From a virus: a DNA stretch of 20,717 bases. The position numbers and the translations under genes are program-made. Of the stretch, positions 13,833 to 20,717 are shown in pieces. Where the stretch lies: UHGV virus genome UHGV-1961940; one strand, 5' to 3'. The notes under the pieces were generated by a model, which did no database searches, was not told the DNA's origin, and saw only the letters and a program-made list of their open reading frames with translations. Position 1 is the first letter of the stretch. Each line of letters opens with the position of its first letter.

Positions 13833-14090
13833 TCAGTCCACCTCTTCTTCTCGTTGTAGTTCAAGATACCCGTAGGTCTGGACATCTTGAAGGGTGTGGA
13901 ACTCCCCCTCTGCCGCTAAGGCACGAACAACTTGGCACAAAACCTTATGAGGAACTTCATCCAAACCTAGATTCAGTGCAGGAAACACCTTATCTAAGTC
14001 AACAAAATAAACGAACTGTAGCTCACCAGCTTCAAAAGGTGTATCTTCAATAAACATCTTCTCGGCATTAGTCAAGATCTGCACTTTCAT
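13833..14090 (-). CDS. hypothetical protein (85 aa), acidic C-terminus
   Basis: Track ORF; ATGA start/stop overlap with the upstream gene at 14090. Confidence 0.45.
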   Translation of the reverse strand: MKVQILTNAEKMFIEDTPFEAGELQFVYFVDLDKVFPALNLGLDEVPHKVLCQVVRALAAEGEFHTLQDVQTYGYLELQREEEVD

Positions 14091-14446
14091 TATTCTACCT
14101 CCTCTTCTTTTTCTTCGGCATTAGTTTCATGGCTACCCCACTCGGGAGTTTCCACCTCGATAGTAAACTCACGCACTACACGGTAATTGCCCATGAAGCG
14201 CTCTACTTCGTCAAGGCTTATGGAGAGGCCATTGGCAACCAGGTCTGCAGCACCCTCTTCTACCAGGTAGTCCAGATTGGCTTCCAGAGCCTCAGGTTCA
14301 AACCCTGTCAATGCAATCAGATAACCTTCCCCTTCATCAGGGAGGACAATACAGCCCAATTGATTTTCTTTAAAAAGGCAGTGACCATCATTATTGATTG
14401 GGTGTTCATTGCAGTAAATAGCTGCACGATAAGTAACTTTAGACAT
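14090..14446 (-). CDS. hypothetical acidic protein beginning MSKVTYRA (118 aa from ATG 14446; track ORF starts at TTG 14467)
   Basis: AAGGAG RBS 9 nt upstream of the ATG at 14444-14446, and an in-frame TGA two codons upstream of the TTG. The start region lies inside the 29-bp inverted repeat. Confidence 0.5.
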   Translation of the reverse strand: MSKVTYRAAIYCNEHPINNDGHCLFKENQLGCIVLPDEGEGYLIALTGFEPEALEANLDYLVEEGAADLVANGLSISLDEVERFMGNYRVVREFTIEVETPEWGSHETNAEEKEEEVE

Positions 14447-14451
14447 CGGTA
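14423..14451. repeat. Left copy of a perfect 29-bp inverted repeat (reverse complement of 16285-16313)
   Basis: Checked base by base: the reverse complement of 14423-14451 is 'taccgatgtctaaagttacttatcgtgca', identical to 16285-16313. Both flanks mismatch immediately outside the 29 bp. Confidence 0.9.
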
Positions 14452-14459
14452 AGGTCTCC

Positions 14460-14738
14460 TTAGGCAATTGTCATTTTACATTCTTGAAATTTTAACACAA
14501 GACGGTAATTGTGTCTAGTGTCTAAAAAGATTTTTTCAACCATCAGGCACACGGTATAACCGTCCATCTTGTTGACAACAAAATCTCCAGGATGAGGGAG
14601 GATGTCTCCCGGATTGGGGAAACATAGTCCACTCAGAAAGGCATCGTCAGTGGTGGACTTAATAGATTTCCACACACTGTCTGCCTGAACATGTTCACCG
14701 ACGTAATATACATTACCACATGCCTTCATCATAGTCAA
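14460..14738 (-). CDS. hypothetical protein (92 aa)
   Basis: Track ORF; ATGA overlap with the upstream 299-aa gene. Its TAA stop overlaps the RBS of the next gene. Confidence 0.45.
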   Translation of the reverse strand: MTMMKACGNVYYVGEHVQADSVWKSIKSTTDDAFLSGLCFPNPGDILPHPGDFVVNKMDGYTVCLMVEKIFLDTRHNYRLVLKFQECKMTIA

Positions 14739-15674: not shown

Positions 15675-15703
15675 ACTATATTGTGGAGTTAGAGTAAAGT
15701 CAA
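15675..15703 (-). promoter_or_regulatory. Sigma70/SigA-type promoter for the leftward operon (-35 TTGACT, 17-nt spacer, -10 TATAGT)
   Basis: Minus-strand reading 'TTGACT ttactctaactccacaa TATAGT': -35 at 15698-15703, -10 at 15675-15680, about 40 nt upstream of the ATG at 15634. Confidence 0.45.
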
Positions 15704-15721
15704 CACGTTTTTGATGTTGAC
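15699..15721. promoter_or_regulatory. Palindrome GTCAACA-N9-TGTTGAC spanning back-to-back -35 elements (candidate operator)
   Basis: Perfect 7-bp inverted arms at 15699-15705 and 15715-15721. The left arm contains the leftward -35; the right arm contains TTGACA (15717-22), which with 17-nt spacing to 'TACGAT' (15740-45) gives a possible rightward promoter. Confidence 0.4.
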
Positions 15722-16754
15722 ATCTGTTGAGACAATTGATACGATTTCTTCACTTACAGAGCACGAGAGACGACTCATGAATCTTGAAAAATATTATACA
15801 CCAGAAGAGTTAGAGCGCTTGCTCAAAAAATATAGACGCAAACAGAATAACGCACGGAAACGAGATATAGAGTTCGACCTGTCATGGGAAGAATACCTCC
15901 TATTTGGTAAAAAACTTTTAGGAGATGGAGTATGCGACTATACCCTTATACCTTTTGACATGCACACAGATGAAAACGGGCTGGGGAATCCTTTCTACCC
16001 ATCCCTGGAGCGGATAGATGATGAAGGTCCTTATGCGGTTGATAACTGTTGTGTGGTGGGATTGAGATGCAACTCTCTAAAGGACTGTCTGGTAGATAAA
16101 AAGACTGCAGTCTTGATTAAAGACGAAACTGATCGAAAAATTGTCCAGCAGATGATGCTCCACCTGAGCGAAGAGCGTATGGAGAAATTGAAAGGTGATT
16201 ATACTTTTGAAGATTTCATCTTGCAATATGGAACGGAAGAGGATAAACTAGCACTCTTTGACGAAGAAGAGGAGGAAGATATGCTACCGATGTCTAAAGT
16301 TACTTATCGTGCACCCAAGAAGCACATTTCCGACATTGTAAACGAGCCTATCACAGAAGAGATTGAAGAAATGACGCAACAGGTGCATGAAGAGGAAAAA
16401 GAGACTCAGGAGGTCGAAGAGGAGCTTACAGAAGAGGTTCCTGCACTACCTGATGATGTTGAGATTGCCAAAGCTTACACTTTCTATTGTCAAACGTTCT
16501 ACGATGTAGGTATGAAAGTTGATCTGTCGTTCAGCCAATTTAAGAGTTCGTATATTCGCAAATGCTGTGCTTTAACTGGTGAACGTCTTGGAGCTGGACT
16601 TAAACCCCTGTTGGTGACCGACTGGAATAAAGGTTTCACTAAAGGAAACTTTATGGTAGTATCTCCAATTATGAAGAAAGCTATGACAGATCTTATGAAG
16701 ACCACCCGCATGACAATGACCGAGTTGGCAGGTATTTTCAAACACGTTAAATAA
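15711..16754 (+). CDS. Hypothetical protein (347 aa by track): basic/Cys N-terminal domain with possible degenerate HNH/His-Me-finger-like motif, acidic linker, distinct C-terminal domain; start uncertain
   Basis: 'YRRKQNNARKRDIEFDLSWEEY...CDYTLIPF...PSLERIDDEGPYAVDNCCVVGLRCNSLKD' loosely resembles small phage HNH-type endonuclease domains, but with Arg where the catalytic His would be. Acidic runs 'DEEEEED', 'EEEKETQEVEEELTEE'. If the rightward promoter at 15717-45 is real, translation more likely starts at ATG 15777. An internal RBS (GGAGG) plus ATG at 16281/16290 coincides with the 29-bp repeat. Confidence 0.55.
   Translation: MMLTSVETIDTISSLTEHERRLMNLEKYYTPEELERLLKKYRRKQNNARKRDIEFDLSWEEYLLFGKKLLGDGVCDYTLIPFDMHTDENGLGNPFYPSLERIDDEGPYAVDNCCVVGLRCNSLKDCLVDKKTAVLIKDETDRKIVQQMMLHLSEERMEKLKGDYTFEDFILQYGTEEDKLALFDEEEEEDMLPMSKVTYRAPKKHISDIVNEPITEEIEEMTQQVHEEEKETQEVEEELTEEVPALPDDVEIAKAYTFYCQTFYDVGMKVDLSFSQFKSSYIRKCCALTGERLGAGLKPLLVTDWNKGFTKGNFMVVSPIMKKAMTDLMKTTRMTMTELAGIFKHVK
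16285..16313. repeat. Right copy of the perfect 29-bp inverted repeat (see 14423-14451)
   Basis: 'taccgATGtctaaagttacttatcgtgca' read directly; in frame it encodes (L)PMSKVTYRA inside the 347-aa ORF. Confidence 0.9.
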
Positions 16755-16759
16755 TGACA

Positions 16760-16774
16760 GGGGCCAATGGCCCC
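16760..16774 (+). other. Palindromic hairpin GGGGCCA-a-TGGCCCC between the 347-aa gene stop and the VWA gene
   Basis: Perfect 7-nt arms read directly, followed by a T-rich 'ttctggagtttta'. It contains the ATG at 16767, suggesting the real start of the next gene is ATG 16788. Confidence 0.3.
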
Positions 16775-18248
16775 TTCTGGAGTTTTAATGGATAGCAGAA
16801 GTTCAGAAATCATTGCCTCGCAGAAAGATGATGCCCTGAGAATGTTGCAGGCTGCACGTATGTATCTCCTTGAAAAGCTGCCGTTTTATGGCACACTACT
16901 GTCAGGGTTGCAGTTCGTAGAAAACCACACATGGTGCTCCACCATGGCAACCGACCATAAACGCATCTATTACAGTCCTGAGTTCATTATGGGATTGGCT
17001 GATGAACGCAAGGCTATTCTTAAGGCTTCTCTAACTGACGAGCAGTTTGAGATGGCTGAAGTTTTCTATTCTCCAAAATCTGTGAAAGAGGTGGCCTTCC
17101 TTCTGTCACATGAGGTGGGGCATATTATCTGTGATCACCTAGTCCGTGGTAAAAGCTTTGAGCCGGAACTGTTCAATATTGCTTGTGATCACGTTATCAA
17201 CACAGGCCTTGTGGTTGACTTTAGCAAACCTCCTTGTGTTTTCTTCCCGAAGGGGAAAAGCACTACGTTCATGAAAGGTAAGCCTTTTGGCTTCTTAGCC
17301 AGCTGCTACTGCGACATGAAGTTTCATGGATGGATTGCTGAGAACGTTTATGCAGTTCTTGATAAGCAAAGAGATCAGAATAACGGTAAAAGTAAGAACG
17401 GTAAAGGTGAGAACTCTCAAAGTGATAAGCGACAAACCGATGATCACATGAGTGGGAACGGTGGCACCAGTGATAATCTTGGAAAGGCTATGGGGTATGA
17501 TCAGCCACAACCTGTAATCAGCCAATCTGATAAAGATCAGGCCATGCAGGACTCTGGTGATATGCTGGAGGCAGCAATGCAAGCGTCCGGAGGCCGTTGC
17601 CCTGAGGCGGTGCGTGAGTTTGTCAAGAACAGAGGTAAGCCTGTAATCAACTATATAGACATCATTAAGCAACGTATGTTGTCTAAAAGAAAGGCCGAAC
17701 TGACCTACAGAAAACCTGGTCGCCGATCTGGGTCTTTGACCAGCACAATGCGAAAAGTTGGGGCTATAAACAAGAACCAGCACGTTATTGTTCCTGGTCG
17801 TAATCCGGAAAACACTATAGATATTGTGGTGGCTTTAGACGTTTCTGGCTCGATCTCTCAAAGAACTTTAAAGAAAATGTTCAATGAAATCACCGGATTG
17901 TGCAATCTGTATAAAGAGTTTAAGGTTACAATGTTCTGTTGGTCAACTGAGGTTGGAGAGGTTAAAGTATACACTCGCGGCAACATAGACGAGATGGTCA
18001 ACTATGAGGTCCACTCAACATGGGGCACAACAGCTGCTTGCGTGTTCGAGTATCTGGATGCCAACATACCTAATGCAAAAGATGTCATCGTCCTGACCGA
18101 CCTATACTTTGAGCATAACTTTGAACAAAAGGTTGTTGACAACAAGTGGAAAAAGTACGATACTCTATGGGTCCTCACTGAGGGGTATAATAAAAATTAT
18201 ATCCCGAGCTTTGGGAAAACTGTGGAATTAATCGAGTACGCTAAGTAA
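16767..18248 (+). CDS. VWA-domain protein with N-terminal putative HExxH metallopeptidase domain (DUF2201-like architecture); likely starts at ATG 16788
   Basis: Zinc-metallopeptidase motif 'LSHEVGHIICDHL'. VWA MIDAS motif 'VVALDVSGSIS' in the C-terminal half. GGAG 5 nt upstream of ATG 16788. Confidence 0.7.
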   Translation: MAPSGVLMDSRSSEIIASQKDDALRMLQAARMYLLEKLPFYGTLLSGLQFVENHTWCSTMATDHKRIYYSPEFIMGLADERKAILKASLTDEQFEMAEVFYSPKSVKEVAFLLSHEVGHIICDHLVRGKSFEPELFNIACDHVINTGLVVDFSKPPCVFFPKGKSTTFMKGKPFGFLASCYCDMKFHGWIAENVYAVLDKQRDQNNGKSKNGKGENSQSDKRQTDDHMSGNGGTSDNLGKAMGYDQPQPVISQSDKDQAMQDSGDMLEAAMQASGGRCPEAVREFVKNRGKPVINYIDIIKQRMLSKRKAELTYRKPGRRSGSLTSTMRKVGAINKNQHVIVPGRNPENTIDIVVALDVSGSISQRTLKKMFNEITGLCNLYKEFKVTMFCWSTEVGEVKVYTRGNIDEMVNYEVHSTWGTTAACVFEYLDANIPNAKDVIVLTDLYFEHNFEQKVVDNKWKKYDTLWVLTEGYNKNYIPSFGKTVELIEYAK

Positions 18249-18263
18249 GAGAGGAGGTTATTT

Positions 18264-18527
18264 ATGGCAACAGAGTTAAAATTTGCATCAAACCGTAAAA
18301 CTAAGAAGTATCTGTCCTCAGTAGCTCCAGGCACTGTGGTGATGTTTGTTGATGAACTTGGGGATGTGAATACAGCACTTGTTGTAAAATCACATCCTGC
18401 AAACATATATGTTGGGGTATTTGACCTGTTCAGAAAGGTGTTTGTAGAACTGCCTCACAGTTTGGTTGTTACAGAAATGGATGCCTGCATAGAAATTCTT
18501 GGCGAAGTTATGGTGGAGGAACAATAA
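18264..18527 (+). CDS. Small protein, paralog family member A (87 aa)
   Basis: RBS 'GAGGAGG' upstream. Shares 'MAT...F.S..K.KK...GTVV...VK...FDL...LP...VTE.D..I.ILGE' with the next ORF. Confidence 0.6.
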   Translation: MATELKFASNRKTKKYLSSVAPGTVVMFVDELGDVNTALVVKSHPANIYVGVFDLFRKVFVELPHSLVVTEMDACIEILGEVMVEEQ

Positions 18528-18790
18528 TGGCTACCAGCATTGTATTCAATTCTAAGGTGAAGAACAAAAAGCGTGCAGACAGTTTTCCGTGTGGGACCGT
18601 GGTAAGTTGCGACGGAGACGGCATTCAAAACATAGTTATGATTGTCAAAACAGGAGAACATTGTGTGTGGGGGTTCGATTTAGAAAATAATGAGTTGTAC
18701 GATCTGCCGCCAAACATGAAAGTTACAGAGCTTGACACCAAAATTACCATCCTTGGAGAGACAAGCTATTCAAAAGAAGGAGGAGAATAA
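18527..18790 (+). CDS. Small protein, paralog family member B (87 aa)
   Basis: Start overlaps the preceding stop; GGAGG RBS. About one third identical to member A by eye. Confidence 0.6.
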   Translation: MATSIVFNSKVKNKKRADSFPCGTVVSCDGDGIQNIVMIVKTGEHCVWGFDLENNELYDLPPNMKVTELDTKITILGETSYSKEGGE

Positions 18791-19053
18791 TGACCACAAA
18801 AATCACTATCGCAGAACCGAAAGCTAACACTCAGCCTATCGAAAAGTTTAAGTACGGTGAGGTGGTAACATTCACACCAGATAATGAAGATGCTAAGATT
18901 TTCGCAATGGTCACAGCTGAGTGGATGTGTGACAACACCACACAGGTTCTGCGTTTTGACACCTATCTTACCGATGAAATCAGGAACGACAAGATTGTGA
19001 CTGGTGTGGATACTGAGATTGTTTTCTACAAGAGCTTTTTAGAGGGTTTCTGA
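18790..19053 (+). CDS. Small protein, paralog family member C (87 aa)
   Basis: Same length and start/stop overlap; AGGAGG RBS. Shares the 'G.VV...V...FD...VT..D..I' pattern more distantly. Confidence 0.55.
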   Translation: MTTKITIAEPKANTQPIEKFKYGEVVTFTPDNEDAKIFAMVTAEWMCDNTTQVLRFDTYLTDEIRNDKIVTGVDTEIVFYKSFLEGF

Positions 19054-19054
19054 T

Positions 19055-19288
19055 ATGGCAAAAATTAGAAAATTATCTAGCAATCAGGTTGTGAAAGACT
19101 TCGAATCTGGAGAGATTCTTTATGTTCGTGATGCAGATGACGAAGGTGAAGATCTCGTTATGTTGGTGGGGCACGCTGAGGACGGATGCATCCAAGCTGT
19201 TTTTCTTGAAACAGCTATGGTGCACTGGATAGAGCTGGACCTGAAAGCACGAAAACCTAAAGCAGAAATCCTGATTTACGAAGATTAA
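19055..19288 (+). CDS. Small protein, paralog family member D (77 aa, divergent)
   Basis: Immediately follows member C; 'GEILYV...LVMLVG...AVFLET...ELD' echoes the family pattern. Confidence 0.5.
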   Translation: MAKIRKLSSNQVVKDFESGEILYVRDADDEGEDLVMLVGHAEDGCIQAVFLETAMVHWIELDLKARKPKAEILIYED

Positions 19289-19304
19289 CAAAAAGGAGAT
19301 AGCC

Positions 19305-19754
19305 GTGTTGAGCAAACGTGAATGCGACAGCATTAGCCTGAATTCTTATAAGAAACAATGGTTTGGGGTGGAAGTTTGCCGACTGCGGCTAGGCTCCTAC
19401 CTGAACTTCGTTTATTATGAGAGTGACAGTCGTATCGTTTCTTATGAAGTGTTCTACACTAAGAACACATTCGAACTGCGCCGTAAAGTAGATGGCGGGA
19501 GAACTACCACCCAGAATAATTGGGAAACTATTCTGCCTCCAGATGTTATAGGAAGTCCCCTGAATGTATCTGAAGATGAAAATCTTATGGTTCATGCTAT
19601 GATGGGACTTGACAGCTTAGAGCTGGCAATCTATGATATGTCCATCGAAGCAGTTAAGCTGGACTACATCGAAAACACTTTAGAGGAAGGTATCAAGAAG
19701 TTTCTCAGTGAGAAATTAAAAGACCACTTTCATAAGGAGCTATATCTGTTATGA
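19305..19754 (+). CDS. hypothetical protein (149 aa), GTG start
   Basis: AGGAG at ~19293-19297, 7 nt before the GTG at 19305. Confidence 0.5.
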   Translation: MLSKRECDSISLNSYKKQWFGVEVCRLRLGSYLNFVYYESDSRIVSYEVFYTKNTFELRRKVDGGRTTTQNNWETILPPDVIGSPLNVSEDENLMVHAMMGLDSLELAIYDMSIEAVKLDYIENTLEEGIKKFLSEKLKDHFHKELYLL

Positions 19755-19996
19755 AGACCCGTAAAGAACGTAACAAAATTTTACCTGGAGCTCTCGAACA
19801 CCTGATGAAGTGCAGATCTATTTGGCACTCTGCCAAGGAAGGGCAGAAGGTGGTTGTGGTTAGTGACAATACCAACCCGTTTGGAGATTATACCACCATG
19901 ATGGCCCCATATGTCCGTGATGGCGTTGTAGAAGTGGTCCCTTACAACGGTTTGCATGAACGGCACTTTGAAAGCACTTTGCTAGTGGAGCTATAG
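19751..19996 (+). CDS. hypothetical protein (81 aa)
   Basis: ATGA overlap with the upstream gene; AGGAG upstream. Confidence 0.45.
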   Translation: MKTRKERNKILPGALEHLMKCRSIWHSAKEGQKVVVVSDNTNPFGDYTTMMAPYVRDGVVEVVPYNGLHERHFESTLLVEL

Positions 19997-19998
19997 TC

Positions 19999-20565
19999 AT
20001 GGCGGTCAATGTGGCTTACAACACAGGAAAGCTTGACAGAGACATTGGGTGTCTTGTCCTTTCAGATACAGAAGAGTATTGGGGTTATGGGTTGCTGTCA
20101 GACCCACACCCGAGCAACCTTGTATCAACAGTGCTATACCGCTACGACCCTGTGCCAACGGTACACGACAAAGACATTCACGACCTTCGGATCAAGTGTC
20201 TGGAAGATCTGCTGAACAATGGTTGCAACGATCTGCGGGTAGCCAAGGAGAAGCTTACAAACATTCACAAAGAGGAAGTGATGAGTACCCTCAGTAAAAG
20301 ATCAGTGCACAAAAAGATGATGCTGAACTTTGCAATGGGTATCTACATGGATGGGTATAAGGGAGGGGATCCGATCCTCAAGCTTCGCTGCCCGACACTG
20401 TGGGAAAGAGTGGTTGACAGTAAGGACGGTACTGCCCTGCTCGAACTCCACACTGCAGGTTGGATTTGGCGGTATGTAGACGGATACCCTCTGTGGGCAT
20501 GTGGACCTGGGGAATTTGTTGACAGACCTAGCGCGGTGGTGGACTTACTATTGCAGTTTGAATAA
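19999..20565 (+). CDS. hypothetical protein (188 aa)
   Basis: Track ORF starting 3 nt after the previous stop. No motifs recognised. Confidence 0.5.
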   Translation: MAVNVAYNTGKLDRDIGCLVLSDTEEYWGYGLLSDPHPSNLVSTVLYRYDPVPTVHDKDIHDLRIKCLEDLLNNGCNDLRVAKEKLTNIHKEEVMSTLSKRSVHKKMMLNFAMGIYMDGYKGGDPILKLRCPTLWERVVDSKDGTALLELHTAGWIWRYVDGYPLWACGPGEFVDRPSAVVDLLLQFE

Positions 20566-20622
20566 AAAGGTGAGTTATAAGGTATTCATACACCTACCAA
20601 CAATACAACAGGAGAGACTAAG

Positions 20623-20717
20623 ATGACGAAAGAAGAGGCCGACGTATTAGATTTTGCACTAGAGGCTACGCAGGAGGCTTTGGTGTTAGCTTGGAAAATG
20701 AACCAGCGTGCAGTGTG
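20623..20717 (+). CDS. hypothetical protein, 5' partial (continues beyond window end)
   Basis: ATG at 20623 preceded by 'caGGAGAGactaag'; frame stays open to the window end (MTKEEADVLDFALEATQEALVLAWKMNQRAV...). Confidence 0.35.
   Translation, partial: MTKEEADVLDFALEATQEALVLAWKMNQRAV

What the first reader, a model, noticed from the sequence alone, without database searches (positions are those of the whole stretch)
18264..19288. Tandem array of four diverged paralogous small ORFs of near-identical length
Four consecutive genes (87, 87, 87 and 77 codons) with overlapping or abutting stop/start codons and individual strong RBSs share a protein pattern (MAT..., G-T/E-V-V, hydrophobic core V.VK, FDL/FDT, VTE.D..I.ILGE) but almost no nucleotide identity. 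Three are exactly 264 nt long, which suggests a conserved small fold. This points to old duplication followed by diversification, as seen for anti-defense or host-range accessory families. Function is unknown.
Basis: seen in the sequence. Interest (0 to 1): 0.6.

Follow-up and report, generated by a model that had tools for sequence, protein, structure and literature searches.

The report
Four small beta-barrel paralogs in rV5-like phage
Four back-to-back genes in the early region of an rV5-like E. coli phage are real, very old copies of one small acidic beta-barrel protein; their function is unknown, but two are swapped as a block between related phages and two are almost unchanged, which makes them reasonable though unproven candidates for host-interaction or counter-defence factors.

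Summary
The window is a Vequintavirus (rV5-like E. coli myophage), 99.9% identical to phage Murica. The four ORFs exist exactly as described: 87, 87, 87 and 77 aa, TAATG or TGAtATG junctions, each with its own Shine-Dalgarno, and no nucleotide repeats.

**Paralogy**
- ORF1~ORF2 is solid (BLASTP E 5.6e-10).
- ORF3 and ORF4 are remote members. Each outscores every shuffle and every one of 452 genome-wide decoy ORFs in profile comparisons, and both align full length in the same order.

**Fold**
- AF2 models of ORF2 and ORF3 (pLDDT about 80) are the same all-beta SH3/Tudor/KOW-like small barrel.
- The ORF3 model's best match among viral structure models is the independent ORF1 model (TM 0.75).

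**Distribution**
- A search of 1.84 billion proteins found the ORF1/2 family only in rV5-like phages. ORF3 and ORF4 were found only there too, by less sensitive searches.
- Sister genera lack the array.
- 44 of 118 genomes carry ORF1+ORF2. The other 74 carry one third allele (about 40% identity) between 98%-identical flanks.
- ORF3 and ORF4 are 90-100% conserved (dN/dS 0.03-0.04).

**Function**
Function is not established. The likeliest role is early, non-enzymatic binding proteins in host takeover or counter-defence. This is a modest finding: a new remote-paralogy link between three 'unknown' PHROG families.

The parts
18264..18527 (+). ORF1 (87 aa, 'type A'; Murica gp013). Variable member of the family, phrog_10698. 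Acidic: pI 5.0, 9.6 kDa.
   Evidence: ORF list. PHROG hit E 7.6e-43. BLASTP to ORF2 E 5.6e-10. Present in 44 of 118 Vequintavirus records. 56-58% identical to its ortholog in the divergent relative L004. pI.
18527..18790 (+). ORF2 (87 aa, 'type B'; Murica gp014). Variable member, phrog_10698. Its start shares one base with the ORF1 stop (TAATG).
18790..19053 (+). ORF3 (87 aa; rV5 gp015 / Murica gp015). Conserved remote paralog, phrog_12861. Start overlaps the ORF2 stop (TAATG).
   Evidence: hhalign against the ORF1/2 family gives P 2.4e-5 over 77 columns and outranks all shuffles and decoys. AF2 pLDDT 81.1 with the same strand order; the best BFVD match is the ORF1 model at TM 0.75. 93-99% identical in 118 phages. 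dN/dS 0.03 against L004.
19055..19288 (+). ORF4 (77 aa; rV5 gp016 / Murica gp016). Conserved, most remote paralog, phrog_12046. It is the most acidic member (net charge about -8).
   Evidence: The (ORF1/2+ORF3) profile against ORF4 scores 25.8 over 68 columns with 0 of 100 shuffles reaching it, and 23.9 against a decoy maximum of 18.8. The independent BFVD model of its ortholog naam_63 (identity checked) is matched by both the ORF2 and ORF3 models at TM 0.50-0.55. dN/dS 0.04.
18290..18789 (+). Exchangeable cassette. In 74 of 118 relatives this stretch (most of ORF1 plus all of ORF2) is replaced by one 'type C' gene of 85 aa.
   Evidence: In the DNA alignment with FV3, about 93% identity breaks after about codon 9 of ORF1 and resumes exactly at the ORF3 start. 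Type C is 35-41% identical to A and B, while the flanking genes are 98% identical.
15717..15745 (+). Sigma-70-like promoter (TTGACA-17-TACGAT with an extended -10 TG) at the head of the rightward early operon that contains the array. A divergent partner lies at 15703-15675 on the - strand.
   Evidence: Consensus scan. [quoted passage not shown] The scan predicted no + strand terminator between here and the end of the window.
15777..16754 (+). First gene of the operon, a Srd-like protein labelled 'anti-sigma factor / HNH endonuclease' (rV5 gp11 homolog). Context only.
   Evidence: PHROG 3118, with weaker hits to Srd and sigma-70-decoy families. Murica annotation. The rV5 paper calls it a Srd homolog.
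16767..18248 (+). DUF2201 putative metallopeptidase plus VWA-like domain protein, directly upstream of the array. Context only.
   Evidence: Pfam DUF2201_N E 4.4e-28 and DUF2201 E 2.9e-11. In Seunavirus and Mydovirus this gene is followed directly by the homolog of the gene at 19305, with no array; Certrevirus CR9 has a similar-sized gene there whose homology was not checked.
19305..19754 (+). Downstream flank, the rV5 gp017 homolog (149 aa; PHROG label 'tail protein'). It marks the right edge of the Vequintavirus-specific insertion.
   Evidence: PVP-SE1 gp215 is annotated as similar to rV5 gp017 and directly follows the DUF2201 gene.

Best explanation
**What it is (shown).** This is a gene family specific to rV5-like phages, produced by ancient tandem duplication. 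It encodes four small (8.8-10 kDa), acidic, all-beta proteins with an SH3/Tudor/KOW-like small-barrel fold. The genes sit in an early operon with host-type promoters and have overlapping or abutting stop and start codons, an arrangement that permits translational coupling.

**How it most likely works (inferred).** The proteins have no catalytic motif and most likely act as non-enzymatic binding modules on host, or possibly phage, macromolecules during takeover. The locus has two tiers. ORF3 and ORF4 are a constant pair under strong purifying selection and presumably act on a conserved target. ORF1 and ORF2, or the single alternative type C gene, form an exchangeable cassette that behaves like an accessory, strain-specific factor, for example a counter-defence or host-range factor.
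For: **Real genes and paralogs**
- ORFs, Shine-Dalgarno motifs and coupled junctions are present.
- dN/dS is 0.03-0.22 in orthologous comparisons.
- Homology statistics support the family.
- No fifth member turned up among about 600 small ORFs across the genome.

**Fold**
- AF2 pLDDT is 80-81 for ORF2 and ORF3, with the same strand order.
- Foldseek links the ORF2 model to the ORF1 model at TM 0.87 and the ORF3 model to the ORF1 model at TM 0.75. The ORF4 ortholog model matches at TM 0.50-0.55.

**Early expression**
- A sigma-70-like promoter lies at 15717-15745, with no predicted terminator before the array.
- The rV5 paper places genes 11-26 in one unit driven by host-type promoters.
- The genes are not named among the virion proteins in the passages of that paper that were read.

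**Accessory behaviour of the first slots**
- 44 genomes carry A+B and 74 carry C.
- The cassette breakpoints fall at the gene borders.
- A type D copy sits in a different genomic context in an uncultured Vequintavirinae-like lineage.
- The whole array is absent from the three sister genera examined.

**Other**
- ORF3 and ORF4 are conserved.
- All members have pI 4.4-5.0.
Against: - There is no functional evidence of any kind. Pfam, NCBIfam and PDB sequence searches gave no hits, and the PHROG families have no assigned function. No literature on these genes was found.
- The SH3-like barrel is one of the most common small folds, and dozens of unrelated-looking 70-90 aa phage proteins match equally well. 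The fold therefore says little about the target.
- The ORF3 model was built with an alignment that included the other families, so its agreement with ORF1/2 is partly circular.
- ORF4 homology rests on an intermediate profile plus a TM of about 0.5.
- No sign of positive selection was found. dN/dS is about 0.22 for the variable genes, and their divergence against L004 is similar to that of neighbouring genes.
- Stop/start overlap is common in phage operons and does not prove that the proteins form a complex.
Confidence: 0.45

Rival explanations
1. The four proteins are subunits of one hetero-oligomeric complex, possibly working with or on the adjacent DUF2201 metallopeptidase/VWA protein, as adaptors, substrates or inhibitors. 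They would not be independent host-directed factors.
For: - The genes share a fold, are adjacent and have overlapping or abutting stop/start codons, which favours fixed stoichiometry.
- They lie immediately downstream of DUF2201.
- The same number of records (44 of 118) carries A and carries B.
- ORF3 and ORF4 are conserved together.
Against: - Sister genera keep the DUF2201 gene without any array.
- A type D copy occurs alone, away from DUF2201 and from ORF3/4.
- 74 genomes manage with one variable gene instead of two.
- No multimer prediction could be run.
Confidence: 0.15
2. They are transcription or translation modulators that dock on RNA polymerase or the ribosome in the way cellular Tudor/KOW barrels do (UvrD/PcrA C-terminal domain, NusG/Spt5 KOW, ribosomal L2, EF-P). 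They would complement the Srd-like anti-sigma gene at the head of the operon.
For: - The first gene of the operon is a Srd homolog.
Against: - There is no sequence match to KOW or Tudor Pfam models.
- An acidic pI argues against direct nucleic-acid binding.
- The only characterised small RNAP binder that was followed up, phiEco32 gp79, is all-alpha.
Confidence: 0.12
3. They are dispensable lineage-specific ORFan genes with no shared function. ORF4, and perhaps ORF3, only converge on a common small-barrel fold and are not true paralogs.
For: - Direct ORF1/2 vs ORF4 comparison is not significant: E 0.11 and 0.03.
- HMMER with the ORF1/2 profile did not retrieve ORF3 or ORF4 from 1.84 billion proteins.
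- PHROGs keeps three separate families.
- Many unrelated phage proteins match the fold at a similar TM.
Against: - ORF3 and ORF4 are the two top-scoring ORFs of the whole genome against the family profiles, and they are the physically adjacent genes.
- The alignments are full length and in the same order.
- dN/dS of 0.03-0.04 shows that ORF3 and ORF4 are under strong constraint and are not junk.
Confidence: 0.13
4. The variable cassette serves phage-phage competition, for example superinfection exclusion or interference with co-infecting relatives, rather than acting against host defence.
For: - Discrete, mutually exclusive allele sets (A+B versus C) circulate within one genus that shares hosts.
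- The genes are in an early operon.
Against: There is no membrane or signal feature, and no evidence from any tool. This reading cannot be separated from the counter-defence reading with the present data.
Confidence: 0.08

Closest known systems
PHROG families phrog_10698 (ORF1, ORF2), phrog_12861 (ORF3) and phrog_12046 (ORF4); rV5 gp014-gp016 and Murica gp013-gp016
   Same: These are full-length, high-scoring matches (E 1e-41 to 1e-60). They are the same genes as annotated in 118 Vequintavirus records.
   Different: The three PHROGs are kept as unrelated families of unknown function. The remote paralogy shown here joins them into one family. No function is recorded for any of them.
SH3-like small beta-barrel superfold (Tudor, KOW, ribosomal L2 SH3 domain, UvrD/PcrA C-terminal Tudor domain, KapB)
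   Different: There is no sequence-family membership: no Pfam match to Tudor, KOW or SH3. The phage proteins carry an extra N-terminal beta-hairpin (residues about 2-16) and are acidic. Ligand-binding features such as an aromatic cage were not examined.
Uncharacterised 70-90 aa proteins of other phages in BFVD (N4 gp21, Kuravirus SU7/172-1/NJ01/ECBP2, LAMP, PaP3 ORF65, Seu621 and others)
   Same: They match both models over nearly full length at TM 0.55-0.70 and are the same size. Several of these phages contribute two hits each, which suggests paralog sets there too.
   Different: There is no detectable sequence similarity: tblastn and the exhaustive HMM search found nothing outside rV5-like phages. 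None of them has a known function, so they give no functional lead.
Variable 'accessory regions' of closely related phage genomes used to discover counter-defence genes (Silas et al., bioRxiv 10.1101/2023.04.06.535777)
   Same: The first slots of the array fit the operational pattern: small genes of unknown function that differ between otherwise near-identical genomes and are flanked by conserved genes.
   Different: That paper does not mention rV5 (0 occurrences). No counter-defence activity has been tested for these genes. ORF3 and ORF4 are not variable.

Membership tests
One paralogous family comprising ORF1-ORF4 | Statistically significant sequence similarity between members | tested here: met
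   ORF1~ORF2 gives BLASTP E 5.6e-10. ORF3 against the ORF1/2 profile gives P 2.4e-5, z about 9 against shuffles, and outranks 452 decoys. ORF4 is significant only against the combined ORF1/2+ORF3 profile: E 2e-4, z about 9, above all decoys.
One paralogous family comprising ORF1-ORF4 | The same three-dimensional fold and strand order | tested here: met
   The ORF2 and ORF3 AF2 models (pLDDT 80, 81) have the same strand order. The ORF3 model's top BFVD hit is the ORF1 model at TM 0.75. The ORF4 ortholog model matches at TM 0.50-0.55. Caveats: the ORF3 alignment contained the other families, and ORF4 itself was not modelled here.
SH3-like small beta-barrel fold class | Compact barrel of five or six bent antiparallel strands that superposes on solved SH3/Tudor/KOW domains | tested here: met
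Tudor / KOW / SH3 sequence families (Pfam) | A match to the family HMM above its gathering threshold | tested here: not met
   None of the four proteins has a relevant Pfam hit at E <= 0.1. A PDB profile search returned 0 hits at E <= 10.
Tudor readers | An aromatic cage that binds methylated Lys or Arg | not tested
Known phage anti-defence proteins (Acr, Ocr/ArdA, Tad, Gad, Acb and similar) | Sequence or structural homology to a characterised inhibitor, or a demonstrated inhibition phenotype | tested here: inconclusive
phiEco32 gp79-type RNAP-binding transcription factor (considered because Kuravirus proteins matched the fold) | A small four-helix protein that binds the RNAP clamp | tested here: not met
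   gp79 is described as four alpha-helices (PMC12276001). The proteins here are all-beta.
Virion (structural) proteins | Late expression, location in the structural module and detection in virions | tested here: not met
   The genes lie in the early unit (genes 11-26) behind sigma-70-like promoters. They are not named among the virion proteins in the passages of the rV5 paper that were read. The supplementary MS table was not read.

The most novel reading that the evidence does not exclude
The array may encode a modular hetero-oligomeric takeover or counter-defence device. A conserved core pair (ORF3/ORF4) would combine with exchangeable specificity subunits (A+B, C or D), all built from one small-barrel fold, so that cassette swapping retargets the complex to different host factors or defence systems. 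A broader version is that sets of small-barrel paralogs, seen as paired hits in several unrelated phages, form a widespread and unrecognised class of phage effectors.
Probability: 0.08. Interest if true: 0.7.

Novelty: new member of a known kind. Interest (0 to 1): 0.32.

Why it matters
If the inference holds, the locus offers a compact natural experiment. Within one phage genus there are two near-invariant and two exchangeable versions of the same 9-10 kDa fold, and isolates of both cassette types are already in culture, for example BASEL-collection phages and the Danish wastewater series. Deleting or swapping about 500 bp could reveal a new host-interaction or counter-defence activity. The work also gives a small curation gain: three PHROG families of unknown function merge into one family with a predicted fold. 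Without functional data this remains an ordinary feature of large lytic phage genomes, namely a tandem array of ORFan early genes.

Tried and rejected
1. **Pairwise BLAST among all window ORFs.** Only ORF1~ORF2 came out, so profile methods were needed for ORF3 and ORF4.
2. **Word-indexed homolog searches and tblastn against 50,697 phage records.** They found nothing outside 118 Vequintavirus records.
3. **Exhaustive HMM search of 1.84 billion proteins with the ORF1/2 profile.** It gave only three true clusters. The other three hits are repeat proteins (an LRR-like protein and a tandem-repeat protein were inspected) and were judged spurious.
4. **Pfam, NCBIfam and PDB sequence searches.** No meaningful hits.
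5. **Search for a fifth family member.** About 600 small ORFs in the window and the whole Murica genome were tested and none was found. The best decoy scored 22.5 over only 24 columns.
6. **Search for the array or relatives next to DUF2201 in sister genera.** PVP-SE1, VLCpiM5a and CR9 have none. The small gene between the Srd-like gene and DUF2201 in the first two shows no similarity.
7. **Type C as a simple A/B chimera from unequal crossing-over.** Rejected. Type C is about equally distant from both along its length, although it shares two short nucleotide words with ORF2.
8. **phiEco32 gp79 (RNAP inhibitor) as a characterised relative of the Kuravirus structural hits.** Rejected, because gp79 is all-alpha.
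9. **CRISPRi-ART paper on the Vequintavirus EdH4.** In the passages read, only the capsid and rII genes were targeted, so it offers no data on this locus.
10. **Rfam scan and repeat search for an RNA or DNA element explaining ORF3/4 conservation.** Nothing was found.
11. **Literature searches for Vequintavirus anti-defence or paralog descriptions.** Nothing relevant.

Full report
**Identity of the window.** The region 17800-20717 is 99.9% identical to Escherichia phage Murica and 90-99.9% identical to 118 phage records in total. Murica is classified as Vequintavirinae, genus Vequintavirus, the rV5-like E. coli myophages. Window coordinates equal Murica coordinates plus 9031. The finding corresponds to Murica gp013-gp016, all annotated 'hypothetical protein'.

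The leftward part of the window carries early and replication genes: primase/helicase, Dda-like helicase, rIIB, rIIA, endolysin and an ATPase. A divergent promoter region at about 15675-15745 starts a rightward operon. Its genes, in order, are:
- a Srd-like protein (15777-16754);
- a DUF2201 metallopeptidase/VWA protein (16767-18248; Pfam E 4.4e-28 and 2.9e-11);
- the four small ORFs;
- further small genes.

- The ORFs are at 18264-18527, 18527-18790, 18790-19053 and 19055-19288, encoding 87, 87, 87 and 77 aa.
- The junctions are TAATG, TAATG and TGAtATG. Each start is preceded by GGAGG, GGAGG, AGGAGG or GAGGG at 7-9 nt (sequence).
- There is no nucleotide-level repetition; a single 12-mer pair is the only repeat found.
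- No Rfam family matches anywhere in the window.

**Are they paralogs?** The evidence is graded.
- ORF1 and ORF2 are clearly related: 39.5% identity over 81 aa, E 5.6e-10. Neither ORF3 nor ORF4 gives a significant pairwise hit to anything in the window.
- PHROGs likewise places ORF1 and ORF2 in phrog_10698, ORF3 in phrog_12861 and ORF4 in phrog_12046, all of unknown function.
- A profile of eight ORF1/2-type sequences aligns to ORF3 end to end, 77 of 87 columns, with P 2.4e-5.
- Re-run locally, that comparison scores 32.3. One hundred column-shuffled ORF3 alignments give 10.4 +/- 2.4 with a maximum of 23.1.
- Against ORF3 as a single sequence the score is 29.9. The 452 small ORFs from the rest of the Murica genome give 9.6 +/- 2.3 with a maximum of 21.1.
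- ORF4 is not significantly similar to the ORF1/2 profile alone (E 0.11 and 0.03).
- Against the merged ORF1/2+ORF3 profile, ORF4 aligns in the same order over 68 columns and scores 25.8. Shuffles give 9.9 +/- 1.8 with a maximum of 16.0.
- As a single sequence ORF4 scores 23.9, against a decoy maximum of 18.8.

So the two best-scoring ORFs in the whole genome are the two genes physically next to ORF1/2. No fifth member exists in the window or elsewhere in the genome.

**Structure.**
- AF2 on ORF2, using the ORF1/2-family alignment, gives pLDDT 80.2 and pTM 0.64. The model is all-beta with eight strands.
- AF2 on ORF3 gives pLDDT 81.1 and pTM 0.68 with the same order of elements. One caveat applies: its input alignment contained all four families, so this model is not fully independent.
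- Foldseek against BFVD, whose models are independent of mine, ranks the ORF1-family entry A0A6B9WQ88 first for both models. TM is 0.87 for ORF2 and 0.75 with E 9e-6 for ORF3.
- The BFVD entry A0A6B9XD35 is the ORF4 ortholog naam_63; its identity was verified by an exact cluster look-up. Both models match it at TM 0.50-0.55 and E about 0.013.
- At that level dozens of other 70-90 aa uncharacterised phage proteins also match, including N4 gp21, several Kuravirus proteins, LAMP and PaP3 ORF65.

Fold evidence is thus strong for ORF1-3 and only consistent for ORF4.

**Distribution and evolution.**
- tblastn with each of the four proteins finds only the same 118 Vequintavirus records.
- An exhaustive HMMER search of 1.84 billion cluster representatives with the ORF1/2 profile finds only three genuine clusters. 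The other hits are repeat proteins. ORF3 and ORF4 were not searched exhaustively.
- In Seunavirus (PVP-SE1) and Mydovirus (VLCpiM5a), the DUF2201 gene is followed directly by the homolog of the gene that here lies at 19305. In Certrevirus (CR9) a similar-sized gene follows it, but its homology was not checked. None of the neighbouring small genes resembles the family. The array therefore appears to be an insertion specific to the rV5-like lineage.
- Within the genus, 44 of 118 records carry ORF1 and 44 carry ORF2. The other 74 carry a single 'type C' gene of 85 aa, for example rV5 gp014, FV3_00013 and V18 gp012. This gives a three-gene array.
- Type C is 35-41% identical to both ORF1 and ORF2, while the flanking DUF2201 protein and ORF3 are 98% identical.
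- Nucleotide similarity to FV3 breaks after about codon 9 of the first gene and resumes exactly at the ORF3 start codon. The first slot(s) therefore behave as an exchangeable cassette.
- Within each allele type the proteins are nearly invariant.
- A 'type D' gene, 61% identical to C, sits alone in a different context in an uncultured lineage. Its neighbouring gene is only 33-35% identical to Vequintavirinae homologs.

| Gene, compared with divergent relative L004 (Logan contig; array of 88/85/87/77 aa) | Protein identity | Source |
|---|---|---|
| Srd-like | 58% | |
| DUF2201 | 82% | |
| ORF1 | 56% | |
| ORF2 | 64-70% | |
| ORF3 | 96.6% | |
| ORF4 | 94.8% | |
| Downstream gene at 19305 | 61% | |
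| Downstream gene at 19999 | 55% | |

- For ORF3 and ORF4 in this comparison, dN is 0.02-0.03, dS is 0.62-0.64 and dN/dS is 0.03-0.04. They are under strong purifying selection.
- Their synonymous divergence is also lower than that of the saturated flanks, so a more recent exchange of this segment cannot be excluded.
- The variable genes show dN/dS of about 0.22, with no evidence of pervasive positive selection.
- All alleles are acidic, pI 4.4-5.0 and net charge -4 to -8, and weigh 8.8-10 kDa.

**Interpretation.**

What is shown:
- these are real protein-coding genes;
- they descend from one ancestor by old tandem duplication;
- ORF1-3 share a small SH3-like barrel fold, and the evidence for ORF4 is consistent with it;
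- the genes lie in an early operon with host-type promoters and have overlapping or abutting junctions that permit translational coupling;
- the locus has a constant pair and a cassette-like variable part.

What is inferred:
- lacking any catalytic signature, they most likely act by binding;
- the constant pair probably serves a conserved step of takeover;
- the variable cassette behaves like the accessory genes that often turn out to be counter-defence or host-range factors.

**Verdict.** The 'diversification' picture needs correcting, because two of the four genes are among the most conserved in the neighbourhood. The anti-defence idea remains an untested analogy. This is a new remote-homology link within already catalogued hypothetical proteins. 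It is a typical ORFan paralog array of a large lytic phage, with a neat constant/variable architecture that makes it a convenient experimental target. Interest is modest.

Noticed in passing
window 15777-16754 and 16767-18248 (Murica gp011, gp012): RefSeq and PHROG label both genes 'HNH endonuclease'. Pfam shows the second is a DUF2201 putative metallopeptidase plus VWA-like domain. The first is Srd-like (anti-sigma or sigma-decoy families) with an endonuclease VII/HNH-like N-terminal match. The 'HNH endonuclease' name for the DUF2201 protein looks like propagated misannotation.
   Followed up: partly
window 19305-19754: PHROG 6790 and RefSeq call this 149-aa early-operon protein a 'tail protein'. 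It sits in the early transcription unit far from the structural module and has homologs directly after DUF2201 in sister genera, so the label is doubtful.
   Followed up: no
phage database hits: Sixteen GenBank records named 'Campylobacter phage' (host C. jejuni), for example C12, A13b, A147 and A140, carry this locus with proteins 96-100% identical to those of E. coli Vequintavirus. C12 is 98.4% identical at the DNA level. The host labels are probably wrong, or the records are contaminants.
   Followed up: no
L004:4258-4756 vs window 18790-19288: Against the divergent relative, ORF3 and ORF4 have not only very low dN but also much lower synonymous divergence (pS 0.42-0.43) than the neighbouring genes (pS 0.64-0.86). 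This suggests either a more recent recombinational exchange of this 0.5-kb segment or an extra constraint on the DNA or RNA.
   Followed up: partly
L007:1355-1606 (ENA metagenome contig): A 'type D' member (83 aa, 61% identical to type C) occurs as a single gene between a 211-aa gene and a Cys-rich 143-aa gene, with no ORF3/4 or DUF2201 nearby. The lineage has no close relative in the phage database, and cluster members lie on contigs up to 148 kb. A 240-bp piece of the same contig (2070-2307) is 84% identical to Krischvirus (RB49-like) phages.
   Followed up: partly
BFVD hit lists: Several unrelated phages contribute two different small proteins each to the list of structural look-alikes: Escherichia phage 172-1, Proteus phage 3H10_20, Siphoviridae sp. 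ctuUw41 and Escherichia phage EP335. DUF2201 homologs also occur in N4-like phages, whose prototype N4 gp21 matches the fold. Sets of small-barrel paralogs may be common in phage early regions.
   Followed up: no
window 19751-19996 vs L004:5224-5471: The 81-aa gene (phrog_4868) downstream of the array has no called counterpart in the divergent relative L004, where a 247-bp gap without a gene lies at that position. This is another presence/absence difference in the same operon.
   Followed up: no
window 14090-14467 (-) vs 15711-16754 (+): There is a short 13-residue stretch of 77% identity between the N-terminus of the 125-aa ORF on the minus strand and residues 189-201 of the Srd-like protein (E 0.01 in a 29-sequence database). 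It may be chance.
   Followed up: no
window 18790-19053: The exact ORF3 protein of this window (Tyr22 instead of the usual Cys22) is recorded only from JGI/Logan/ENA assemblies. One of these is a contig of exactly 20717 bp, so the window is probably a whole metagenomic contig.
   Followed up: no
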